Positions 3,203-12,843 of a stretch of DNA of 13,531 nucleotides are shown here, in pieces; the stretch's first letter is position 1, and the number at the start of each line of letters is the position of its first letter. This DNA is from a virus. The stretch lies in the UHGV virus genome UHGV-0241990, one strand, 5' to 3'. The notes under the pieces were generated by a model that saw only the letters and a list, made by a program, of their open reading frames with translations, was not told where the DNA came from and made no database searches. The position numbers and the translations under genes are program-made.

Positions 3203-3218
3203 CCACACCAACCCACCA

Positions 3219-3245
3219 GGGGGCCATCACGGCCCCTTTTTTATT
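3219..3245 (+). terminator. rho-independent terminator
   Basis: GGGGCC (3220-3225) / GGCCCC (3231-3236) stem, ATCAC loop, then TTTTTTATTT; 17 nt after the stop of the 236-aa gene. Confidence 0.85.
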
Positions 3246-3248
3246 TAT

Positions 3249-3303
3249 CCCCTATTTAACCCCTATTTAATGGGTATTTAATGCCTATTTATTGATTTAA
3301 TGG
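3249..3303. repeat. five tandem 11-bp units with TATTTAA core
   Basis: cccctatttaa (3249), cccctatttaa (3260), tgggtatttaa (3271), tgcctatttat (3282), tgatttaatgg (3293). Period is one helical turn. Confidence 0.6.
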
Positions 3304-3783
3304 TTTTGGGCATTGTTGACAGTGTAAGAGAGAGGATGTAACCCTTTTTTGCAATACTAATAAAATCAATAGCTTAGCTCAATTGGCCTTTTCTCTATTT
3401 TTGTCAAATTTAACATACCCTCAAAAACTGCAAAATCTGGCTGCAAGATTATCTGCAGCTGGATTTCTTACACCTCAATTTGTAGTATCACCCTGACTAG
3501 TTTGTGCATAAAATGAACAGTTTTTAACATTTCCTATTCACCTGGTAACCACACAAAAAGCTAAAAACGAGGCACAGATAATCTTAGAGGCCTGTTTTCT
3601 TGTTATCACTCTGGGAACGTCGTAGAAGTGATTTTGATGAAAGATGACCTACCCTATTACACCCCCATTTTTTGTTATCACAATTGCATCCTGTGCGGTG
3701 TATGGCTGTGTGCTGAAAGCGGTCTTGGGTGTGGGTGTCAGAAATATCCATTAGCGGTATTAATACCCGTCAGATGTTCGTCT

Positions 3784-3820
3784 GAGGTGCCAGGCAGGCG
3801 CTCCCCCACCTCCCTTTTTT
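3784..3820 (+). terminator. orphan terminator-like hairpin plus T-run in non-coding DNA
   Basis: GAGGTG (3784-3789) pairs CACCTC (3807-3812) with GC-rich inner pairing, followed by CC TTTTTT (3815-3820). No annotated gene upstream on this strand. Confidence 0.4.
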
Positions 3821-4368
3821 CTTCTAACAATTCTCAAATATCACACCACTGCCGACCACGTTGCTATTATGTTAATTCTTAAGCTTTGCTGTATGTTGTG
3901 CACATTATTTATTCAGGTGGCTGTACGTAAATTCTGTGCCCACTGATCATGATTTTTAAATCAGATTTTGTAGTGCGCTTTATTAGTGTAGATAAGATCT
4001 ATTATGTTAAATGCAATTTTCCCAACCCTTCAAATCAATGACTTACATGTAAGCATGCACTAACACCCCACACAGCACATTAGACGTATAGATGGCTATA
4101 TCCCACATTTTTGATTGTTTTGTAGTCATTCCCCTGATCATTTAACCAGTATAGTTTGTTCTCTGTAGACCACAAAACCGGAATTTACATCTGATTAACA
4201 TAATCTGTTAGCATGATCACCATTACCCACACAACAATAACCCCATGCAAGCCTCTTCAGGCAATTTATCGGCGTGTTGGTGTGAACAGTCTTTCATGTT
4301 CTTTATGTATTCATTGTCCTGTGTGAGGGAAGGATGGACTGCCCCAGGGGCCATAGTTATGACACCCG

Positions 4369-4404
4369 GTCAACATAACTGTTGATAAAATCAACGGGTG
4401 TTGA
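4369..4404. promoter_or_regulatory. pair of palindromic operator-like sites TCAACA-N4-TGTTGA and ATCAAC-N4-GTTGAT
   Basis: 4369-4384 TCAACATAACTGTTGA and 4389-4404 ATCAACGGGTGTTGAT share half-site TCAAC / GTTGA; centres 20 bp apart. CCCCAGGGG palindrome at 4341-4349 just upstream. Confidence 0.45.
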
Positions 4405-4525
4405 TCTGCATATTTCCCACACATGAGAGAAAATCAAAGCAAAGAGAGAGGAGAGAGGTTTGCTAGTCAAAATAGGTCAATTGACGGCTAATACAGAGTA
4501 AAAAATCAGATGCAATCACTCCCCC

Positions 4526-4795
4526 ACCTGTTGGGATTTCCTACAACCCCTTTCAGTCATACTCAGGCACCACACCCCGGTAAATATTACCGCACTAACC
4601 TGTAAAGAATTTTCACACCTGTGTGTTTATACAGTCATACTCTCCTGTTTTGCAGTCATTGCACCCATGATACACAGCCCCTAACCTGTCAAAATATTTT
4701 ACTACCCCACCAATAATACGGCCCATACCTGTAAAATATTTTTACTACTACCTGTCAAAATCTTTTACTACTACCTGTAAAAATATTTGACACTA
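4526..4795. repeat. iteron array: ACCTGT-containing ~23-bp repeats with near-palindromic core GT(C)AAAATATTTTAC
   Basis: Well-conserved copies starting near 4598, 4684, 4727, 4750, 4773 (spacings 86, 43, 23, 23 bp). Degenerate ACCTGT/CCTGT copies at 4526, 4617, 4644. Inverted repeat CGGTAAATATTACCG at 4578-4592. Confidence 0.65.
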
Positions 4796-4825
4796 ATAGA
4801 TAAAGTAATAGACCACACAATAGAT

Positions 4826-4859
4826 CCCCCCCTAACCCCCCAGGGGGGAATGGGGAGGG
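4826..4859. repeat. homopolymer C/G tract palindrome (C7-TAA-C6-A-G6-AAT-G4-A-G3)
   Basis: Read directly: ccccccctaaccccccaggggggaatggggaggg. CCCCCC A GGGGGG centred at 4842. Shorter CCCCAGGGG relative at 4341-4349. Confidence 0.5.
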
Positions 4860-5377
4860 ATCAGAGAGTGGGGAAGGTTTTCTAAGGGAAAAGCTTAACC
4901 CACAAATGAAAGCCTAAAGAGCATTAGCGACTCTTTAGGCAATATGTGTGTGGGGGTGACAATGTATTCCATACATGACACGTCACCCAATTGTGTGTGG
5001 GAGTGCCTACGGCACCTTAGCCCATGGCTAAGCCCTTCGGGTCTGTGTGTGGTCCGGCGAATGCGTCAGCATGAGGCCCACATGTGGACCGCTGCCGAAA
5101 GCTTGCCAGCGCCGGAAGGAGGCAGCAAAGAGTCTCCCGCGCGGGTGCACGCACACATATATAAAGGATACACTCATAAATCGAAAATAAGCCCCCTAAA
5201 TGGCCTTCTGGCTGCATTAACTAGTGTGAGTAGTGCAATTGCATTACCTGACCTCTAAATCGCGTTAGAATCGATTTTAGAGCGCTTAAGGCAAAAAGTG
5301 CCCTCCCTTGTGGGCTTGCTTGTGTCTGCTGTGCAGGCTATGGCACCTATAGCACACCTAAATGATAATAATTCTCA

Positions 5378-5406
5378 TTGACAATTGGTTGACAATATGA
5401 TAAGAT
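5378..5406 (+). promoter_or_regulatory. sigma70-like promoter candidate P1 with duplicated TTGACAAT
   Basis: TTGACA 5378-5383, 17-bp spacer, TAAGAT 5401-5406 (4/6). A second TTGACAAT at 5389-5396, 11 bp downstream of the first. Confidence 0.4.
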
Positions 5407-5441
5407 TATAAATAGGGGGAGAAACAGATCCGGAGGTCAAT

Positions 5442-5724: not shown

Positions 5725-5940
5725 ATGGCTAAAACCGGACCGATCAGCCAGCTGGTAAACTGGACTACTGACGAAATCGTCGAGAACGTACTTAAGGGGA
5801 ACTTCCGCAAAACTTCCGTTTATGCATTCATTCGTAAACATAAAGGAGAATATCCACACATTGAAGAAGCAATTTTAAAACTAAATTGCATTCGCCTTGA
5901 GCGGGAACTGGCTAAATACACCAATAACATTAATAAATAA
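5725..5940 (+). CDS. hypothetical small protein, 71 aa
   Basis: ORF from track; AGGAGG SD 5711-5716, 8 nt before ATG 5725; first gene downstream of P2. Confidence 0.7.
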   Translation: MAKTGPISQLVNWTTDEIVENVLKGNFRKTSVYAFIRKHKGEYPHIEEAILKLNCIRLERELAKYTNNINK

Positions 5941-5953
5941 TTATGGGGGAATT

Positions 5954-6820
5954 ATGGCAAGTAATTACGGGGAAAATTTTACTCCCCTTTTTAAACGTTT
6001 CATCAAATACATTTTTAAAAATCCGATTGCAAAAACTACAACCAATAAAGAAAGATTTCACTTAAACTTGTTGGAAATGACAATTTACGGTGAGATGGCA
6101 AGTTTTAATGCTGCAGGTTGTGAAATATTTATCTCTGAACAGAGATTAGCAGACGATTATGATGTTTCAAGACCGACAGTTATTAACTCGATTAAATCTC
6201 TAGAAAATGCCGGGCTTATTTCAATAGTTAAAAGTAAAGGCAAATCTAATCATTACAAACTGCTAATTACCCCTGATCAGCTTGGCAAGATGTGTGATGA
6301 GCAGGGTATTAAAACCTCCGACAGTGTGGGATCTAGTAAAGAGGCCCCCGATAATCAACAGGAAGCCCCAAAACAACCCACACAGCAAGCTAAAAAGGCC
6401 GAGGTGGTGCAATTGCCTACCCAACCTAAGAACGAGCGCAGAGAGCGCTTTAGAGACGCTGGCAAACGTGAGAAAGATGAGCACGGTTATCCGATTCTGA
6501 CAAGTGATGAGATGAACGCCAAATACAAAGGGATTCAGGCAACATTTAAGGATCGGAAGAGCATTAAACTCTCTGAATTGCGAGATGCATTTTACGGGCC
6601 GGAGGTGATGGATAAAATTAAAGGCACCGTTGAGGGTAGAATCTGGAAAGAAGATGATTATTGGCATTTAACAGAACAGGCCCTTAAGGTGGCTCAACAT
6701 GTAGCTAAAAGAGGTAAAACAATTATCATCGATTATATTAGTCATGGCTATGATGCCCCGAAAGAAAGATTGTGGAACAACTGCAAGCTTGTAAAAGGCG
6801 AATTAACCATTACAAAATAA
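5954..6820 (+). CDS. winged-HTH DNA-binding protein, candidate replication initiator or iteron-binding regulator, 288 aa
   Basis: Track ORF 5897..6820; start moved to in-frame ATG 5954 (GGGGGA upstream, avoids 44-nt overlap with previous gene). HTH segment ISEQRLADDYDVSRPTVINSIKSLENAGLISIVK, a Q/P/K/E-rich linker, then a distinct C-terminal domain. Lies ~1.2 kb downstream of the iteron array. Confidence 0.8.
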   Translation: MASNYGENFTPLFKRFIKYIFKNPIAKTTTNKERFHLNLLEMTIYGEMASFNAAGCEIFISEQRLADDYDVSRPTVINSIKSLENAGLISIVKSKGKSNHYKLLITPDQLGKMCDEQGIKTSDSVGSSKEAPDNQQEAPKQPTQQAKKAEVVQLPTQPKNERRERFRDAGKREKDEHGYPILTSDEMNAKYKGIQATFKDRKSIKLSELRDAFYGPEVMDKIKGTVEGRIWKEDDYWHLTEQALKVAQHVAKRGKTIIIDYISHGYDAPKERLWNNCKLVKGELTITK

Positions 6821-8793: not shown

Positions 8794-10935
8794 ATGGCAA
8801 TGAAGGAAGTAGCCAGACTAACAAACGTTATTTACTGGGACTCTGATAAATCCTCCTGGCGAAAAGAAGTTAAACGGCTTGAGGATTATAAAAAATCCTG
8901 GAAGAAAGCTACCGACGATATAGCTAAAGCTGATTTTAAATCTAATCAGGCTGTGCTCAGAACACAAAGAACACGCGCTAAGGTGGAAGAGCAGATAGCC
9001 AGAGCTCAGAGGAAACAACAGGAAGCACAGAAGAAACAACGTGCTCAGGCTGTCAGCCGTCTGACCGGGGGCAACAATGCCGAACTTAACTCTATGCGCA
9101 AGTTCTACCAACAACAAGCCAGAGAAGCCGCCAGACAACAAAAACTGTTAGATCGTAGTGTTGGAGATGTTCAGCACAGAAAAGCACGTGTAGGGGCCAA
9201 CAGTGCACGAATCAGCAGCATGTTTGATGGATCCCTGGTTGCTCAGTTCCAAAGCAGAATCCAGAGAGTTAATGCTGATTATGCTAAAGGGGCTATTAAC
9301 CTGCAGACCTATAATCAGAAAATGGCCCGACTCAGAGCTGAAATGAAGATGGCCTCTAGAGATGCCACCACCTTTCAAAGCAAGCTAGATAAACTGGCAG
9401 CAGGTGCGAGCAAGGTGCATAACAATATCGGCAAGCTTAACAGTGCTTTAGGCAAGATAGCCATTGGCCTGACCGCTGCAGGATGGGGTATTCAGAGAGC
9501 TGTTAGTGGTGCTATGAGCGCTCAATCTGACCATAACTCAGCCTATTATGGTTTGCTTGCTCAGAACAAGGATGATAAAGCCAAGACTGACCAGCAGATG
9601 GCTTTTATCGAGAACACAGCCAACACCTACGGGATGGATCAGCGTGAGATGGAGGGTGGCTATATGCGTTTTGCTGCCGCTACTCCCACCATGAAGGAAT
9701 CTGATAAGCAGGCTCTTTTTGAGGCTATGGCGATTAAAGGCCGCTCAGTGGGTGCTACTGGCGAGCAACAGAACAGGGCGCTTGTTGCGGTCCAACAAAT
9801 GGCTTCAAAAGGAAGAGTAGCTGCGGAAGAGCTGCGTGGCCAGCTGTCAGAAGCCTTTGCAGGCTCACAACAGGATTTTCAACAGGCCGCTATTGATGCC
9901 GGAATCATCAAGAGTGCCCAGGAATTCGATAAAGCCATGGCAGATGGCAAAATCACCCTGGACAAGCTTCTTCCCTCTCTAGTGAAAATCTGGGGTGCTG
10001 CAAAAGAAACTGACGCTTTTGCTAAATCTATGCAACAGCCTGAAGTGGCACTGCAGAGAATGAGCAACCAGTTTTTTAAACTAAAGCAATCCTTTATGGG
10101 TGTTGTGGATCCTGCGGATGGCGTCATTACCCTGTCAGAATCCCTTATTTATATCTTTGAAGATTTATCCTCAATTTTCAGTAGCTCAGGTGAAGATGCC
10201 AAATCTCTCGGAGTTATGTTAGGCGAGGCAATGCATGAAATTTATTTTTGGGTCAACTGGGCTTGGTGGTGGACTAAGAAGATCGCCAAAGGCATTGGTG
10301 AGACGTTAGGCTGGACCGCACAGGATGCAGGCGAGAAGATTGGCCAGGTTGTGACCGCCCTGTTAGGCCTGAAGGTTGCAACAAGCATTGCTGGCATGGT
10401 TGGCGGCCTTATTTCCATGCTGTGGAAACTTAAAGCGGCGCTTAGTGCTTTAGTCGGTGTTGGTGATATCAGCACTGGAGGCACAGCAGGCAAAGGCAGA
10501 CCAGGTAGAGGCGGCTTTATCGGGAAAGCAGGCAGACTTGGAGGAAGATTTGCAGGTCCGGCAGGGATTGTTTTGACAGGATTTGACATTGCAAATAGCT
10601 TAGATTCCTACTGGCAGAATCCTGATAATCAGCGGCAGGAAGGAGCTAAACATCCTGAATGGTTAACCAGTATGGTTAATAGTGCTTCTAGCTTCCTTGG
10701 CCTTGATTATCGTCTGGACGCAGGACGCTACATTACCAGACCAACACCAACGGGTGGTATTGCTATTCAGAATGGAGGCTATCAGCCGACTCAAATCAGT
10801 GTAGTTCCGCAGGGTGAGATCTCCGGCAAGTGGGAGATAACCATTGATGAGGGGGGAATTGCCAGGGTGATCCAGAAGGAAGTCAGCGATCAGCTGGATT
10901 GGAAAGCCACACAGGAAGCTAATCAGCTTTTCTAA
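8794..10935 (+). CDS. tape-measure-like protein, 713 aa
   Basis: ORF from track. Long charged Q/K/R/E-rich helical N-terminus; central segment GEQQNRALVAVQQMASKGRVAAEELRGQLSEAFAG resembling the conserved tape-measure domain (recalled). Hydrophobic segments (VVTALLGLKVATSIAGMVGGLISMLW) and a Gly-rich stretch (GGTAGKGRPGRGGFIGKAGRLGGRFAG). Confidence 0.8.
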   Translation: MAMKEVARLTNVIYWDSDKSSWRKEVKRLEDYKKSWKKATDDIAKADFKSNQAVLRTQRTRAKVEEQIARAQRKQQEAQKKQRAQAVSRLTGGNNAELNSMRKFYQQQAREAARQQKLLDRSVGDVQHRKARVGANSARISSMFDGSLVAQFQSRIQRVNADYAKGAINLQTYNQKMARLRAEMKMASRDATTFQSKLDKLAAGASKVHNNIGKLNSALGKIAIGLTAAGWGIQRAVSGAMSAQSDHNSAYYGLLAQNKDDKAKTDQQMAFIENTANTYGMDQREMEGGYMRFAAATPTMKESDKQALFEAMAIKGRSVGATGEQQNRALVAVQQMASKGRVAAEELRGQLSEAFAGSQQDFQQAAIDAGIIKSAQEFDKAMADGKITLDKLLPSLVKIWGAAKETDAFAKSMQQPEVALQRMSNQFFKLKQSFMGVVDPADGVITLSESLIYIFEDLSSIFSSSGEDAKSLGVMLGEAMHEIYFWVNWAWWWTKKIAKGIGETLGWTAQDAGEKIGQVVTALLGLKVATSIAGMVGGLISMLWKLKAALSALVGVGDISTGGTAGKGRPGRGGFIGKAGRLGGRFAGPAGIVLTGFDIANSLDSYWQNPDNQRQEGAKHPEWLTSMVNSASSFLGLDYRLDAGRYITRPTPTGGIAIQNGGYQPTQISVVPQGEISGKWEITIDEGGIARVIQKEVSDQLDWKATQEANQLF

Positions 10936-10980
10936 CTGGTTGATAATAAAAGCCCCTCGGGATTTGTCATCCTTTGGGGC

Positions 10981-10992
10981 TCAACTTCTCGC
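10981..10992 (+). repeat. third copy of the core TCAACTTCTCGC
   Basis: Exact 12-nt match to the core of the 18-nt element at 1944 and 2463; lies just after a hairpin (10953-10981) downstream of the tape-measure-like gene. No start codon at the 11-nt distance. Confidence 0.5.
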
Positions 10993-11389
10993 CTGGCAAG
11001 TGTGATCATCTGCAGAGAGAAAGTCAACTCTCTTTCTGTTCACGTTTGATCATTCATACCGTTTGTTTTATATTCATCAGTGGAAACAGATCCCAGAGGT
11101 TAACGCGACCTCTAAGAGAAAATAAGCGTCTATGATCTGGAGTATCTTGTAGAGCACTGGGCTTGATGCGGCCTCACCCTAACCAAGGTGATAAACAGGC
11201 AAACGTTGGTGGTTCTGCTCTCTTACCCGGCAATAAGTGATAAGCCAAAACTAAGAGATGCCCACACGGTTTCACCGCACCGGAATATAAGCAGGTACCT
11301 GATAAAGCTGATCTACATGAAAACCTGAAAACCCCTAAATGATGCTAGTGTTTCTCCTTACCACCAACACGGCATCAAAAAGAGTTCTA

Positions 11390-11418
11390 TTGTCTGAATT
11401 CAGGATTTTGGCTATAAT
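11390..11418 (+). promoter_or_regulatory. sigma70-like promoter for the 49-aa ORF
   Basis: TTGTCT 11390-11395, 17-bp spacer, perfect TATAAT 11413-11418. Confidence 0.55.
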
Positions 11419-11452
11419 GTAGGCGTAGCAGGTCATAAGAAGGGGTGACACT

Positions 11453-11602
11453 ATGAAGAATGCCAATGCCATTAAGCGAAATAACCGCAAGATTCACGCT
11501 CGCAAGTTTCTCAAGACTGAAGAAGGCCGGAAATGGTTAGAAGAGAAGCAGAAGGAACGGCAGGAGATAAAGCTTGTGCGGGAATTATCCCAGTTTATCT
11601 AA
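11453..11602 (+). CDS. small basic protein, 49 aa (MKNANAIKRNNRKIHARKFLKTEEGRKWLEEKQKERQEIKLVRELSQFI)
   Basis: Not in track (short). AAGGGGTGA SD before ATG 11453; stop TAA 11600-11602. Own promoter and terminator. Confidence 0.6.
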   Translation: MKNANAIKRNNRKIHARKFLKTEEGRKWLEEKQKERQEIKLVRELSQFI

Positions 11603-11612
11603 TCTCAGAGAG

Positions 11613-11639
11613 AGGGGCTATCAGGCCCCTTTCTTGTCT
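11613..11639 (+). terminator. rho-independent terminator
   Basis: AGGGGC (11613-11618) / GCCCCT (11625-11630) stem, 6-nt loop, then TTCTTGTCT. Overlaps the stop codon of the convergent minus-strand gene. Confidence 0.6.
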
Positions 11640-12079
11640 ATGTCTACCCAGTATTTGATTGCACCGATCAAATCATCATAGTGGCGCATTGCATCATTGA
11701 AGCCTTTATAGCTTGCCCATTGTGGGGAAACCTTGTTATTGCTGAATTGCCCACTAATCAGGATAGTCTCCAAAATGTCGGCGTATCGCTTGCCAATTCG
11801 CTTTCTGACGGCCTCAGAGCTCCCACCCTTTACGATTGCATTAATCAGGGCTTTTGTGTGTCTCAGGCTCTCATAGAGCATTGCAGCGTGGGCAGACTCC
11901 ATAAATGAGCGCTTAGGCAAATCACCCCACCCCTCAGAGTGGATAGCCGCCAGTGTGGCGTAATTCAGGCCGCTATAGTGTTTCCCGTCATCCCAGCCAA
12001 CCGCTACACCTTCCATCTGTGAGAGCTCTTTATGCAGCTTATCCATCATGCGCTTGTCTATGGTGCACCGGACTTTCAT
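11621..12079 (-). CDS. putative virion morphogenesis protein, 152 aa
   Basis: ORF from track; start ATG overlaps the stop of the upstream gene (ATGA at 12076-12079). Segment VGWDDGKHYSGLNYATLAAIHSEGWGDLPKRSF is reminiscent of small head-tail or tail-completion proteins (weak, recalled). Confidence 0.75.
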   Translation of the reverse strand: MKVRCTIDKRMMDKLHKELSQMEGVAVGWDDGKHYSGLNYATLAAIHSEGWGDLPKRSFMESAHAAMLYESLRHTKALINAIVKGGSSEAVRKRIGKRYADILETILISGQFSNNKVSPQWASYKGFNDAMRHYDDLIGAIKYWVDIDKKGA

Positions 12080-12843
12080 TTTGTAGCATCCTTGGCAAAT
12101 TTGGCTTGCCTTTGCTGATCATAAATGTCTTTTGTGCTCATAGCCCCATCATTTTCATCGAGCAAAGTTTGTAAATTTTTAGGCTTAGCCGATGGGGTGT
12201 TGGTTGAGTTCCCGACGTTGCTATTCTTCTCAGCACTGTTAACAGCACCCTTTTGCTGTGTTTTATTCACCTTCTTACTGTTAGTGAAAACTCCGGCATT
12301 TTCGACCATCTTCACCTTGAAGGTGCGGAATTCTTCAAAAGTGCAATCAATAGTGATGCAGTCGCCAGAGGAAGAGCTACGCTTAACTTCACATTTCGTC
12401 ATGATGAAGTTCTCAAGAAGTCCGGCATCTTCACTAACCAGGCTAACCAGCTGGCGCTTGTCTCTCATTTCCATAAGTGCCTGAACAGCGGCAGCAGGGC
12501 GCATAGATTCACGGGGATTATCTGGATCAGTGTTCCGGTCGATGTAGTTCTCTTTCCGGATGATATGAGGGGAAGAGGTAACAATACCCGTAAAGCTGAC
12601 AGATTTATCTTTAATGACGGCATGGTCTGACATGGTGGTGCCATCCTCGACCGCATAGCTCGATTTCTCAACAGGGAACGAATAGCTGACATCAGAGATA
12701 GAGTCAAAGAAGATAGCCACATTATCGGTATAGTTGAAGCCATCCATTATATTTTTGTTTTGTGAATATCCCCCACACATAACAGTGAATGCAGGAGATC
12801 TCGACTCAGCTTGTTTTGCAGCTGTTAGAGCATCATTAGCCAT
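12076..12843 (-). CDS. hypothetical protein, likely structural, 255 aa (258 aa if started at 12852)
   Basis: Track ORF 12076..12852. GAGG SD is 1 nt from ATG 12852 but 10 nt from ATG 12843, so 12843 preferred. Beta-rich N-terminal part, low-complexity polar C-terminus. Confidence 0.75.
   Translation of the reverse strand: MANDALTAAKQAESRSPAFTVMCGGYSQNKNIMDGFNYTDNVAIFFDSISDVSYSFPVEKSSYAVEDGTTMSDHAVIKDKSVSFTGIVTSSPHIIRKENYIDRNTDPDNPRESMRPAAAVQALMEMRDKRQLVSLVSEDAGLLENFIMTKCEVKRSSSSGDCITIDCTFEEFRTFKVKMVENAGVFTNSKKVNKTQQKGAVNSAEKNSNVGNSTNTPSAKPKNLQTLLDENDGAMSTKDIYDQQRQAKFAKDATK

What the first reader, a model, noticed from the sequence alone, without database searches (positions are those of the whole stretch)
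11390..11639. Stand-alone promoter / small basic ORF / terminator unit between convergent modules
A perfect TATAAT with a 17-bp spaced TTGTCT, a good SD, a 49-aa Lys/Arg-rich ORF and an intrinsic terminator make a compact independent transcription unit. It sits in the ~0.7 kb gap between the plus-strand operon and the minus-strand cluster. That is the classic moron layout, often lysogenic-conversion or host-interaction genes.
Basis: seen in the sequence. Interest (0 to 1): 0.45.

Follow-up and report, generated by a model that had tools for sequence, protein, structure and literature searches.

The report
Small basic gene behind structured RNA
The promoter, 49-codon gene and terminator are real and conserved, but the gene is the tail end of a two-part cassette whose larger part is an apparently undescribed structured RNA found beside the threonine tRNA gene thrW and on satellite-like plasmids of enteric bacteria.

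Summary
TTGTCT-17-TATAAT (11390-11418), an AAGGGG Shine-Dalgarno, a 49-aa Lys/Arg-rich ORF (11453-11602) and a 12-bp hairpin terminator (11608-11635) lie in the 685-bp gap between the tape-measure gene and the convergent 152-aa gene.

The ORF is a real gene. pN/pS is 0.06-0.23 at saturated synonymous sites. Both promoter hexamers are unchanged in a 78%-identical relative whose spacer changed at 7 of 17 positions. Five complete sister plasmids lack the unit, which fits a moron.

It is not stand-alone, though. Directly upstream (about 11082-11395, core 11144-11320) lies a conserved structured RNA-like element. On 18 sequences, 32 of 51 pairs carry compensatory changes and 93.6% of cells pair, against 30-41% for slid controls. 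There was no Rfam match.

RNA and ORF travel together:
- next to thrW in about 10% of E. coli genomes;
- in Klebsiella, Enterobacter, Pantoea and Erwinia;
- on an IncF plasmid;
- in either orientation in two satellite-plasmid lineages.

All 18 evaluable RNA loci found without reference to the ORF carry it.

Best reading: an RNA plus a small basic helical-hairpin protein that probably acts on that RNA. Function is untested. No evidence supports lysogenic conversion.

The parts
11046..11074 (+). P1: promoter-like site (TTGATC, 17 nt, TATATT) placed to start the structured RNA near 11082.
   Evidence: 9 of 12. TTGATC lies at the same distance (36 nt) from the start of homology in L020, and TATATT is kept in L007. 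Function not shown.
11082..11395 (+). Structured RNA-like element, window-type. It has a 5' hairpin at 11095-11113, a covariance-model core at 11144-11320, and a 3' part ending in CCAACACGGCAT...CTATTG.
   Evidence: Homology with L020 starts at 11082. CM R1 matches 11144-11320 full length: 24.8 bits, E about 7e-6 with filters off and 4e-5 to 5e-5 with default filters. G-U cells exceed A-C cells (54 vs 15), which points to the + strand as the folded one.
11390..11418 (+). The -35 overlaps the conserved CTATTG end of the RNA element.
   Evidence: 10 of 12. Both hexamers are 6/6 conserved against L020, with 7 of 17 spacer changes.
11440..11445 (+). Shine-Dalgarno AAGGGG, 7 nt upstream of the ATG.
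   Evidence: L020 has GGAGG at the equivalent place.
11453..11602 (+). Gene for a 49-aa basic protein, with invariant core AIKRNNRKIHARKFL.T.EG..WL.
   Evidence: pN/pS is 0.06-0.23. AlphaFold2 predicts a helical hairpin, H4-21 and H23-48, pLDDT 89.
11608..11635 (+). Intrinsic-terminator-like hairpin (12-bp stem, loop AUCA). The U-run is partly in the 3' arm. It is probably bidirectional.
   Evidence: -20.1 kcal/mol on +, -13.9 on -. A hairpin is kept at this position with different sequences in L007 and L020.
11621..12079 (-). Convergent 152-aa gene. Its stop codon (11621-11623) lies in the terminator loop. This is the right flank of the cassette.
   Evidence: It is 97-99% identical to the gene in sister plasmids. 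Its last residues differ from L001 where the cassette abuts it.
11634..11639 (+). Second copy of TTGTCT. With 11390-11395 it brackets the about 244 nt that L001-type plasmids lack.
   Evidence: L001 reads ...CACTATTGTCT|TTTTTCATCC...CCAGTATTTGATTG. This may be coincidence, because the two RNA alleles are very diverged.

Best explanation
The unit is a real, expressed-looking small gene. It belongs to a conserved two-part cassette: a structured RNA of about 0.3 kb (0.5-0.6 kb in the chromosomal forms), followed on the same strand by a gene for a 49-52-aa basic helical-hairpin protein.

In chromosomes the cassette sits immediately 3' of tRNA-Thr (thrW) or of its att half-site. No recognisable promoter or terminator lies in between, so it is probably made as one transcript from the tRNA promoter.

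On this 13.5-kb satellite-like plasmid there is no tRNA. It also has a terminator that serves the convergent tail-gene cluster.

Inferred, not shown: the protein's Arg/Lys-rich first helix binds RNA, and its target is the adjacent RNA, as a partner, chaperone or regulator. The cassette would then act as a small RNA-protein module of the mobile element rather than as a host-conversion gene.
For: Real gene:
- Purifying selection.
- The identical protein is on 77 contigs.
- The family is narrow, 40 clusters among 1.84 billion representatives, with an invariant basic core.

Promoter and terminator: conserved by position against L020 and L007.

Structured RNA:
- RNAalifold gives 80 pairs, 18 of them compensatory, including a long-range helix.
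- On 18 sequences, 93.6% of cells are paired against 30-41% for slid controls. 32 of 51 pairs have double changes. The covariation score is 0.353 against 0.130, with 0 of 500 shuffles reaching it.
- The CM finds it in the window directly upstream of the ORF.
- G-U/A-C asymmetry favours the ORF strand.

Linkage:
- RNA and ORF move as one block. Window and L020 are 78% identical over -370..+146, and the block is inverted relative to the tape-measure (TMP) and Dit-like tail genes.
- The E. coli chromosomal copy (L012) and the IncF plasmid copy (L003) are 97.7% identical over 778 nt.
- Klebsiella and Enterobacter copies are conserved from -670 to about +120/+170 whatever the flanks.
- RNA loci found by a DNA pattern alone carry the ORF in 18 of 18 evaluable cases.

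Co-transcription: no promoter or terminator lies between the tRNA and the ORF end in L026 or L012.

Protein: a confident two-helix hairpin with 8 basic residues in helix 1.
Against: - No transcript, protein or binding data exist.
- The RNA occurs without the ORF in 5 of 5 complete sister plasmids, so it does not need the protein in cis.
- Adjacency could reflect a shared insertion point rather than shared function.
- The window's CM score is modest (24.8 bits), and alignment A4 was fitted to the model.
- The protein has no significant similarity to any RNA-binding family: Pfam and NCBIfam none, bL34 only E 0.4-1.5, Foldseek none.
- Basic helices also bind DNA.
Confidence: 0.5

Rival explanations
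1. Free-standing moron. An accessory gene was inserted with its own promoter and terminator. Its product acts on the host (nucleoid, ribosome, surface) or on a phage and has nothing to do with the upstream RNA. Adjacency exists only because the RNA's 3' end is a favoured recombination point.
For: - Presence/absence polymorphism with shared flanks.
- Promoter hexamers and a terminator are conserved.
- TTGTCT is repeated at both ends of the extra segment.
- The RNA exists without the ORF.
Against: - The ORF was never found away from the RNA, apart from one disrupted copy (L050) and one with the RNA 2.4 kb away (L051). Linkage holds in chromosomes, IncF and satellite plasmids and in 18 of 18 independent RNA loci.
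- Chromosomal copies have no private promoter or terminator.
- There is no compositional anomaly: GC is 0.41-0.45 against 0.40-0.52 in the flanks.
Confidence: 0.2
2. The upstream RNA is a cis-acting leader, riboswitch-like or protein- or temperature-sensing, that controls translation of the small ORF. The protein's own job lies elsewhere, for example as a DNA-binding regulator of the element.
For: - In thrW-type copies an invariant AGCCUGCC pairs with the Shine-Dalgarno GGAGGC, next to a covarying hairpin.
- In the window, 11346-11359 can pair with 11440-11453, covering the Shine-Dalgarno and the A of the AUG (repeat I6).
- The Shine-Dalgarno is slightly less accessible in long than in short transcripts.
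Against: - In L001-type plasmids the RNA is kept, highly conserved and with a compensatory change, and has no gene downstream; it runs straight into a convergent stop codon. A purely cis-regulatory role cannot explain that.
- 300-600 nt is very large for a leader of a 150-nt ORF.
- The accessibility differences are small, and the window's anti-Shine-Dalgarno is not kept in L020.
Confidence: 0.2
3. Toxin-antitoxin or addiction pair: the small basic protein, or a neighbouring small hydrophobic ORF, is toxic and the RNA is its antidote, stabilising the plasmid or island.
For: - It is carried on plasmids and islands.
- In L002, L003 and L028 a convergent 50-56-aa hydrophobic ORF follows the small ORF.
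Against: - The window has no hydrophobic partner.
- The RNA has no tandem repeats of the ToxI kind.
- The protein is soluble-looking and highly charged.
- PADLOC finds nothing.
- The RNA persists without the ORF.
Confidence: 0.05
4. Chance ORF: not a gene, only an open frame inside a transcribed or structured region.
For: It is short, has no family in Pfam, NCBIfam or PHROGs, and consensus promoter matches are common in the window.
Against: pN/pS is 0.06-0.23 with saturated synonymous sites. The frame, start, Shine-Dalgarno and stop are kept across at least 8 genera.
Confidence: 0.02

Closest known systems
Phage morons (for example lambdoid bor/lom-type units; Hendrix-type definition)
   Same: A promoter, one small gene and a terminator between two structural-gene clusters. 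The unit is present in some relatives and absent from others with the same flanks.
   Different: The gene is always tied to an upstream structured RNA. The mobile unit is RNA plus gene, about 600 bp. There is no compositional anomaly. The host is a satellite-like plasmid, not a prophage. No conversion phenotype is known.
Dual-function RNAs (S. aureus RNAIII/hld, SgrS/SgrT, SR1/SR1P)
   Same: One transcript unit combines a conserved structured RNA with a small conserved ORF.
   Different: There is no sequence relation. Here the ORF lies 3' of the structure, not inside it. The RNA is larger than most. Base-pairing targets are unknown.
Large ornate RNAs of mobile elements next to tRNA genes (ROOL, GOLLD)
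   Same: Several hundred nucleotides, many covarying helices with GNRA-type loops, carried by phage-related elements, often beside tRNA genes, function unknown.
   Different: No match to their Rfam models at E <= 10. Found in Enterobacterales, not Firmicutes. It comes with a dedicated small basic protein gene.
Arginine-rich-motif RNA binders and small basic ribosomal proteins (lambda N; bL34)
   Same: Short and very basic, with an invariant KRNNRKIHARK stretch. Like N after nutL, it is encoded just downstream of RNA hairpins. A weak profile match to bL34 covers residues 8-34.
   Different: The bL34 match is not significant (E 0.4-1.5) and Pfam finds nothing. No NusA- or polymerase-binding region exists, since the protein is only 49 aa. 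No boxA/boxB pair was identified.
ColE1 RNA II with Rop/Rom
   Same: A structured RNA of a few hundred nucleotides on a plasmid, followed by a gene for a small helical-hairpin protein that acts on RNA.
   Different: No sequence or Foldseek similarity. Rop is acidic. The plasmid has its own HTH_36 Rep-like gene and iterons elsewhere. The cassette also sits in chromosomes beside thrW.

Membership tests
Moron (independent accessory transcription unit of a phage-like element) | Own promoter | tested here: met
   TTGTCT-17-TATAAT. The hexamers are conserved and the spacer diverged against L020. This is sequence evidence only.
Moron (independent accessory transcription unit of a phage-like element) | Own terminator | tested here: met
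   A 12-bp hairpin of -20.1 kcal/mol. A hairpin is kept by position in L007 and L020.
Moron (independent accessory transcription unit of a phage-like element) | Inserted between genes that are adjacent in relatives | tested here: met
   L001 and L077-L080 lack the ORF unit, and the RNA abuts the 152-aa gene.
Moron (independent accessory transcription unit of a phage-like element) | Autonomous: not part of a larger functional unit | tested here: not met
   It is always linked to the upstream structured RNA and moves with it.
Moron (independent accessory transcription unit of a phage-like element) | Expressed in the carrier state and gives a host phenotype | not testable with these tools
   No expression data are available.
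Any Rfam 15 RNA family (including ROOL, GOLLD, group I/II introns, C4/CI, int-alpA) | Match to the family covariance model | tested here: not met
   No hit at gathering score in the window. No relevant hit at E <= 10 in window 10900-11700, L012 5100-6600 or L026 5280-6200.
Structured non-coding RNA (generic) | Compensatory base changes that support a common fold | tested here: met
   (32 of 51 pairs; slid controls 30-41% paired). Caveat: A4 was fitted to the model.
Structured non-coding RNA (generic) | Transcribed as RNA on the predicted strand | not testable with these tools
   Only indirect: G-U excess on the + strand and a promoter-like P1.
Ribosomal protein bL34 (PF00468) | Significant profile match | tested here: not met
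   Pfam finds none at E <= 10. The PDB profile search gives E 0.4-1.5.
Lambda N-type antiterminator | N-terminal ARM plus NusA/RNAP-binding regions, with a nut (boxA/boxB) site upstream | tested here: inconclusive
   A basic N-terminal helix is present, and GNRA-closed hairpins lie upstream. There is no homology, the protein is too short for the other regions, and no boxA was identified.
Known anti-phage defence proteins (PADLOC-DB 2.0) | Match to a defence-system model | tested here: not met
   No hit for P0001, P0010 or P0016.

The most novel reading that the evidence does not exclude
The RNA and the 49-52-aa basic protein form a previously undescribed ribonucleoprotein of enterobacterial mobile elements. 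It is switched on by read-through from the thrW tRNA promoter when an island is integrated, or by private promoters on satellite plasmids.
Probability: 0.3. Interest if true: 0.8.

Novelty: new variant of a known kind. Interest (0 to 1): 0.6.

Why it matters
- A structured RNA of several hundred nucleotides with strong covariation has no Rfam family, yet it is present in about one in ten complete E. coli genomes and in Klebsiella, Enterobacter, Pantoea and Erwinia. Such classes are rare, and past examples have turned out to be ribozymes, RNP scaffolds or regulators.
- It sits at thrW, which P22-like phages and PICI-type satellites use as an attachment site, and on capsid- and tail-gene-bearing mini-plasmids. 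A role in satellite-helper or defence biology is therefore plausible and testable.
- The small protein gives a handle for pull-downs.
- For annotation, the case shows that a textbook-looking 'moron' can be the visible tip of an RNA-based module that ORF-centred annotation misses. RefSeq annotates nothing over the RNA.

Tried and rejected
- Megablast of 10900-12100 against phages found nothing. Against plasmids and E. coli genomes only the 152-aa gene matched. A distant blastn of the gap against plasmids found nothing.
- tRNA scan of the window: none.
- Rfam at gathering score and at E <= 10 on three exemplars: nothing relevant.
- Pfam and NCBIfam found nothing. PHROGs gave only phrog_1441 at E 0.12. 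PADLOC found nothing.
- Foldseek against the PDB gave no meaningful hit. The PDB profile search gave only a weak bL34 match.
- An invertible-switch idea, prompted by nearby small recombinases and the inverted orientation in L020: no flanking inverted repeats were found, so I dropped it.
- An att, cos or other DNA-site explanation for the conserved gap is disfavoured by compensatory changes and the G-U excess on one strand.
- Hidden protein coding in the gap: only short, non-conserved ORFs.
- The single-sequence fold energy of the window RNA is no better than shuffles (z = +0.3), which is uninformative.
- The anti-Shine-Dalgarno / accessibility test gave a small effect that is not conserved in L020.
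- Literature searches on thrW, sRNA, satellites and the peptide motif found no description of the RNA or the protein. The EcCIMP1 paper (PMC11773190) describes a PICI and an 'adjacent island' at tRNA-Thr and does not mention them.

Full report
**1. The observation**

- Promoter: TTGTCT at 11390-11395, a 17-nt spacer, and TATAAT at 11413-11418.
- Shine-Dalgarno: AAGGGG at 11440-11445.
- ORF: ATG at 11453, a 49-codon frame ending in TAA at 11600-11602. The product is MKNANAIKRNNRKIHARKFLKTEEGRKWLEEKQKERQEIKLVRELSQFI, with 15 of 49 residues K or R.
- Terminator: a 12-bp hairpin at 11608-11635, -20.1 kcal/mol, z = -3.3.

The unit lies in a 685-bp gap. The gap separates a 713-aa tape-measure gene (8794-10935, +) from a convergent 152-aa gene (11621-12079, -), whose stop codon sits in the hairpin loop.

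A 10/12 promoter match is not significant by itself. The window has 30 such matches and shuffles give 25.6.

**2. What the window is**

The window is a member of a family of circular, non-mobilizable E. coli plasmids of 13.2-14.3 kb.
- They encode a major-capsid-like protein, a tape-measure protein, a Dit-like baseplate protein and an HTH_36 Rep-like protein.
- They have no terminase, portal or integrase.
- Chromosomal cousins with the same genes are integrated at thrW (L053).
- A PICI and an 'adjacent island' at tRNA-Thr, mobilised by a P22-like helper, are described in PMC11773190.

**3. The ORF is a real gene**

- The identical protein is on record on 77 contigs, at the same place in eight fetched elements.
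- Homologues of 49-52 aa occur in Escherichia, Shigella, Klebsiella, Raoultella, Enterobacter, Citrobacter, Kluyvera, Pantoea, Erwinia and Winslowiella. Nearly all share the core KRNNRKIHARKFL.TPEG..WL.
- Over a 29-codon core, synonymous sites are near saturation (pS 0.6-1.0) while pN is 0.04-0.22, so pN/pS is 0.06-0.23.
- The family is narrow: 40 clusters at 50% identity among 1.84 billion representatives.
- It has no Pfam, NCBIfam or PADLOC match.
- AlphaFold2 predicts a two-helix hairpin (residues 4-21 and 23-48, pLDDT 89). Foldseek finds no counterpart in the PDB. A PDB profile search gives only a non-significant bL34 similarity.

**4. Promoter and terminator**

L020 is a 15-kb element whose copy is 78% identical over -370..+146. 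Its comparison with the window shows the following.
- Both hexamers are unchanged, while 7 of 17 spacer positions and most of the 5' UTR differ.
- A Shine-Dalgarno is kept.
- A hairpin with a T-run follows the stop codon, with an unrelated sequence.

L007 shows compensated changes in the terminator stem. This pattern is expected for functional signals.

**5. The moron test**

Five complete sister plasmids (L001, L077-L080) have the same tape-measure and 152-aa flanks but no small ORF. In them the sequence runs ...CTATTGTCT|TTTTTCATCC into the stop codon of the 152-aa gene. The window has an extra 244 nt or so, bracketed by TTGTCT at 11390 and at 11634. That is a moron-type polymorphism. GC content is not anomalous.

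**6. The unit is not stand-alone**

The block shared with L020 begins at 11082, 370 nt upstream of the ATG. In L020 it lies in the opposite orientation relative to the tape-measure and Dit genes.

In all other contexts the ORF is preceded by a conserved ORF-free stretch of 0.45-0.7 kb.
- The E. coli chromosomal copy and the IncF plasmid copy are 97.7% identical over 778 nt.
- Klebsiella, Enterobacter and other copies are 58-97% identical from about -670 to +120/+170, whatever lies on either side.
- The left side is usually tRNA-Thr(CGT), or its 3' half-site next to an integrase or a prophage end. The right side is variable cargo such as Abi_C or a STAND-like ATPase.

An alignment of ten genera-spanning copies shows invariant blocks: GAAUAAACAGGCGUAAUGUUGGGAAGACUAACC, CCACGGUUUC, CACCGGA, ACCUGAUAAGA and GUGCCCAACACGGCAC. 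It also shows plain compensatory changes.

The fold is supported as follows.
- RNAalifold gives 80 pairs, 18 with double changes, including a long-range closing helix.
- A 180-position covariance model of the core finds every copy. It also finds the window at 11144-11320 (24.8 bits, full length), L020, L007 and the ORF-less plasmids.
- On the 18-sequence alignment, 93.6% of cells pair against 30-41% when partners are slid. 32 of 51 pairs have changes on both sides, and no shuffle reaches the observed covariation. The caveat is that this alignment was fitted to the model.
- G-U cells outnumber A-C cells 54 to 15, so the folded strand is the ORF strand.
- No Rfam family matches at E <= 10 in three exemplars. 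No phage record contains it. RefSeq annotates nothing there.

**7. Linkage in both directions**

Starting from the RNA alone, a DNA pattern in IMG/VR gave 19 model-confirmed loci. All 18 in which the downstream DNA is held carry the ORF 130-200 nt after the core.

Starting from the protein, the RNA is upstream in all but two loci. L050 is a disrupted copy with no RNA match. In L051 the only match is weak and lies 2.4 kb away.

The converse exception is the ORF-less plasmid allele. Its RNA is nearly invariant among five plasmids and shows one compensated pair. The RNA can therefore exist and be conserved without the protein gene and with no gene downstream. That argues that the RNA has a function of its own and is not merely a leader.

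**8. Transcription logic (inferred)**

In L026 and L012 the scanners find no sigma-70-like promoter and no + strand terminator between the tRNA and the end of the ORF. The simplest reading is one transcript from the thrW promoter.

The plasmid has no tRNA. It has a promoter-like P1 (TTGATC-17-TATATT, 11046-11074) placed to start at the first conserved base. Its -35 is at the same distance in L020. It also has P2 in front of the ORF and a terminator.

In thrW-type copies an invariant AGCCUGCC can pair with the Shine-Dalgarno. In the window, 11346-11359 can pair with the Shine-Dalgarno/AUG region. Computed accessibility differences are small, and the pairing is not conserved in L020. Translational control by the RNA remains a rival, not a finding.

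**9. Mechanism**

Shown:
- a conserved small protein gene;
- conserved promoter and terminator signals;
- an adjacent conserved element with covariation on the same strand;
- tight genetic linkage and co-mobility.

Inferred: the basic helical hairpin binds RNA, and its target is the neighbouring RNA. I put about 0.5 on the cassette reading with a functional RNA-protein link. The autonomous moron and the cis-leader model each get about 0.2. Toxin-antitoxin and chance readings get little.

**10. Novelty**

The layout resembles a moron and a dual-function RNA. The RNA resembles ROOL and GOLLD in size, ornateness and its tRNA/mobile-element context. Membership in every family tested failed. I found no paper describing either component.

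I therefore class the finding as a new variant of known kinds. There is a real possibility, about 0.3, that it is a new RNP class.

Noticed in passing
window 3203-5440: About 2.2 kb with no ORF of 100 aa or more lies upstream of the 49-aa, 71-aa and HTH_36 (5897-6820) genes. It holds five iteron-like copies of ACCTGT(A/C)AAA.ATTTT.AC at 4598-4793, a G-rich hairpin at 4824-4851 and a terminator-like site at 4912-4940. This is probably the plasmid origin. The chromosomal cousin L053 has a similar 3-kb unannotated gap (9781-12719).
   Followed up: partly
whole window; L001, L077-L080, L004-L011, L053: The element family carries capsid-like, tape-measure and Dit-like genes plus a Rep-like gene, but no terminase, portal or integrase. 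It exists as 13-kb plasmids and as thrW-integrated islands. It looks like a phage-satellite type that I could not place in P4-like, PICI, cfPICI or PLE schemes. One RefSeq record of 39.6 kb (NZ_CP043822.1) holds three matches to the 152-aa gene segment, the only part of the query found in these collections.
   Followed up: partly
L003 4178-4336 (-), L002 about 4125-4295 (-), L028 6189-6341 (-): A conserved 50-56-aa hydrophobic ORF (one predicted membrane helix, C-terminus ...TKRL/INRL) lies convergent to, and 35-70 nt after, the small basic ORF in an IncF plasmid, a Klebsiella plasmid and a Klebsiella chromosome. It is absent from the window. It could be a type I toxin-like partner or an unrelated neighbour.
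   Followed up: no
L023, L033, L055 (5' of the RNA); L012 about 5310-5330: Where the RNA is not next to a full thrW, it is preceded by the 3' half of tRNA-Thr or by the att core TCCTATTATC, next to an integrase gene or a prophage tail-fibre end. The cassette is therefore what lies just beyond the attachment site used by P22-like phages and PICIs.
   Followed up: partly
L026-L033, L023-L024, 3' of the small ORF: The genes directly after the cassette are variable and defence-like (Abi_C 274 aa; nSTAND/AAA ATPase 482 aa; YafQ toxin; small resolvases and 183-195-aa tyrosine recombinases). The cassette may mark the edge of a cargo hotspot.
   Followed up: no
window 1685-1657 (-): A perfect 12/12 sigma-70 consensus with an extended -10 TG lies on the minus strand, in the gap between the 111-aa gene (841-1176, -) and the HTH_7 gene (2174-2434, +).
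   Followed up: no
window 10951-10981: A 13-bp imperfect hairpin (AGCCCCTCGGGAT / ATCCTTTGGGGCT) lies just after the tape-measure stop codon, without a T-run. It is conserved in the close relatives L004-L011 and may end the + strand operon before P1.
   Followed up: no
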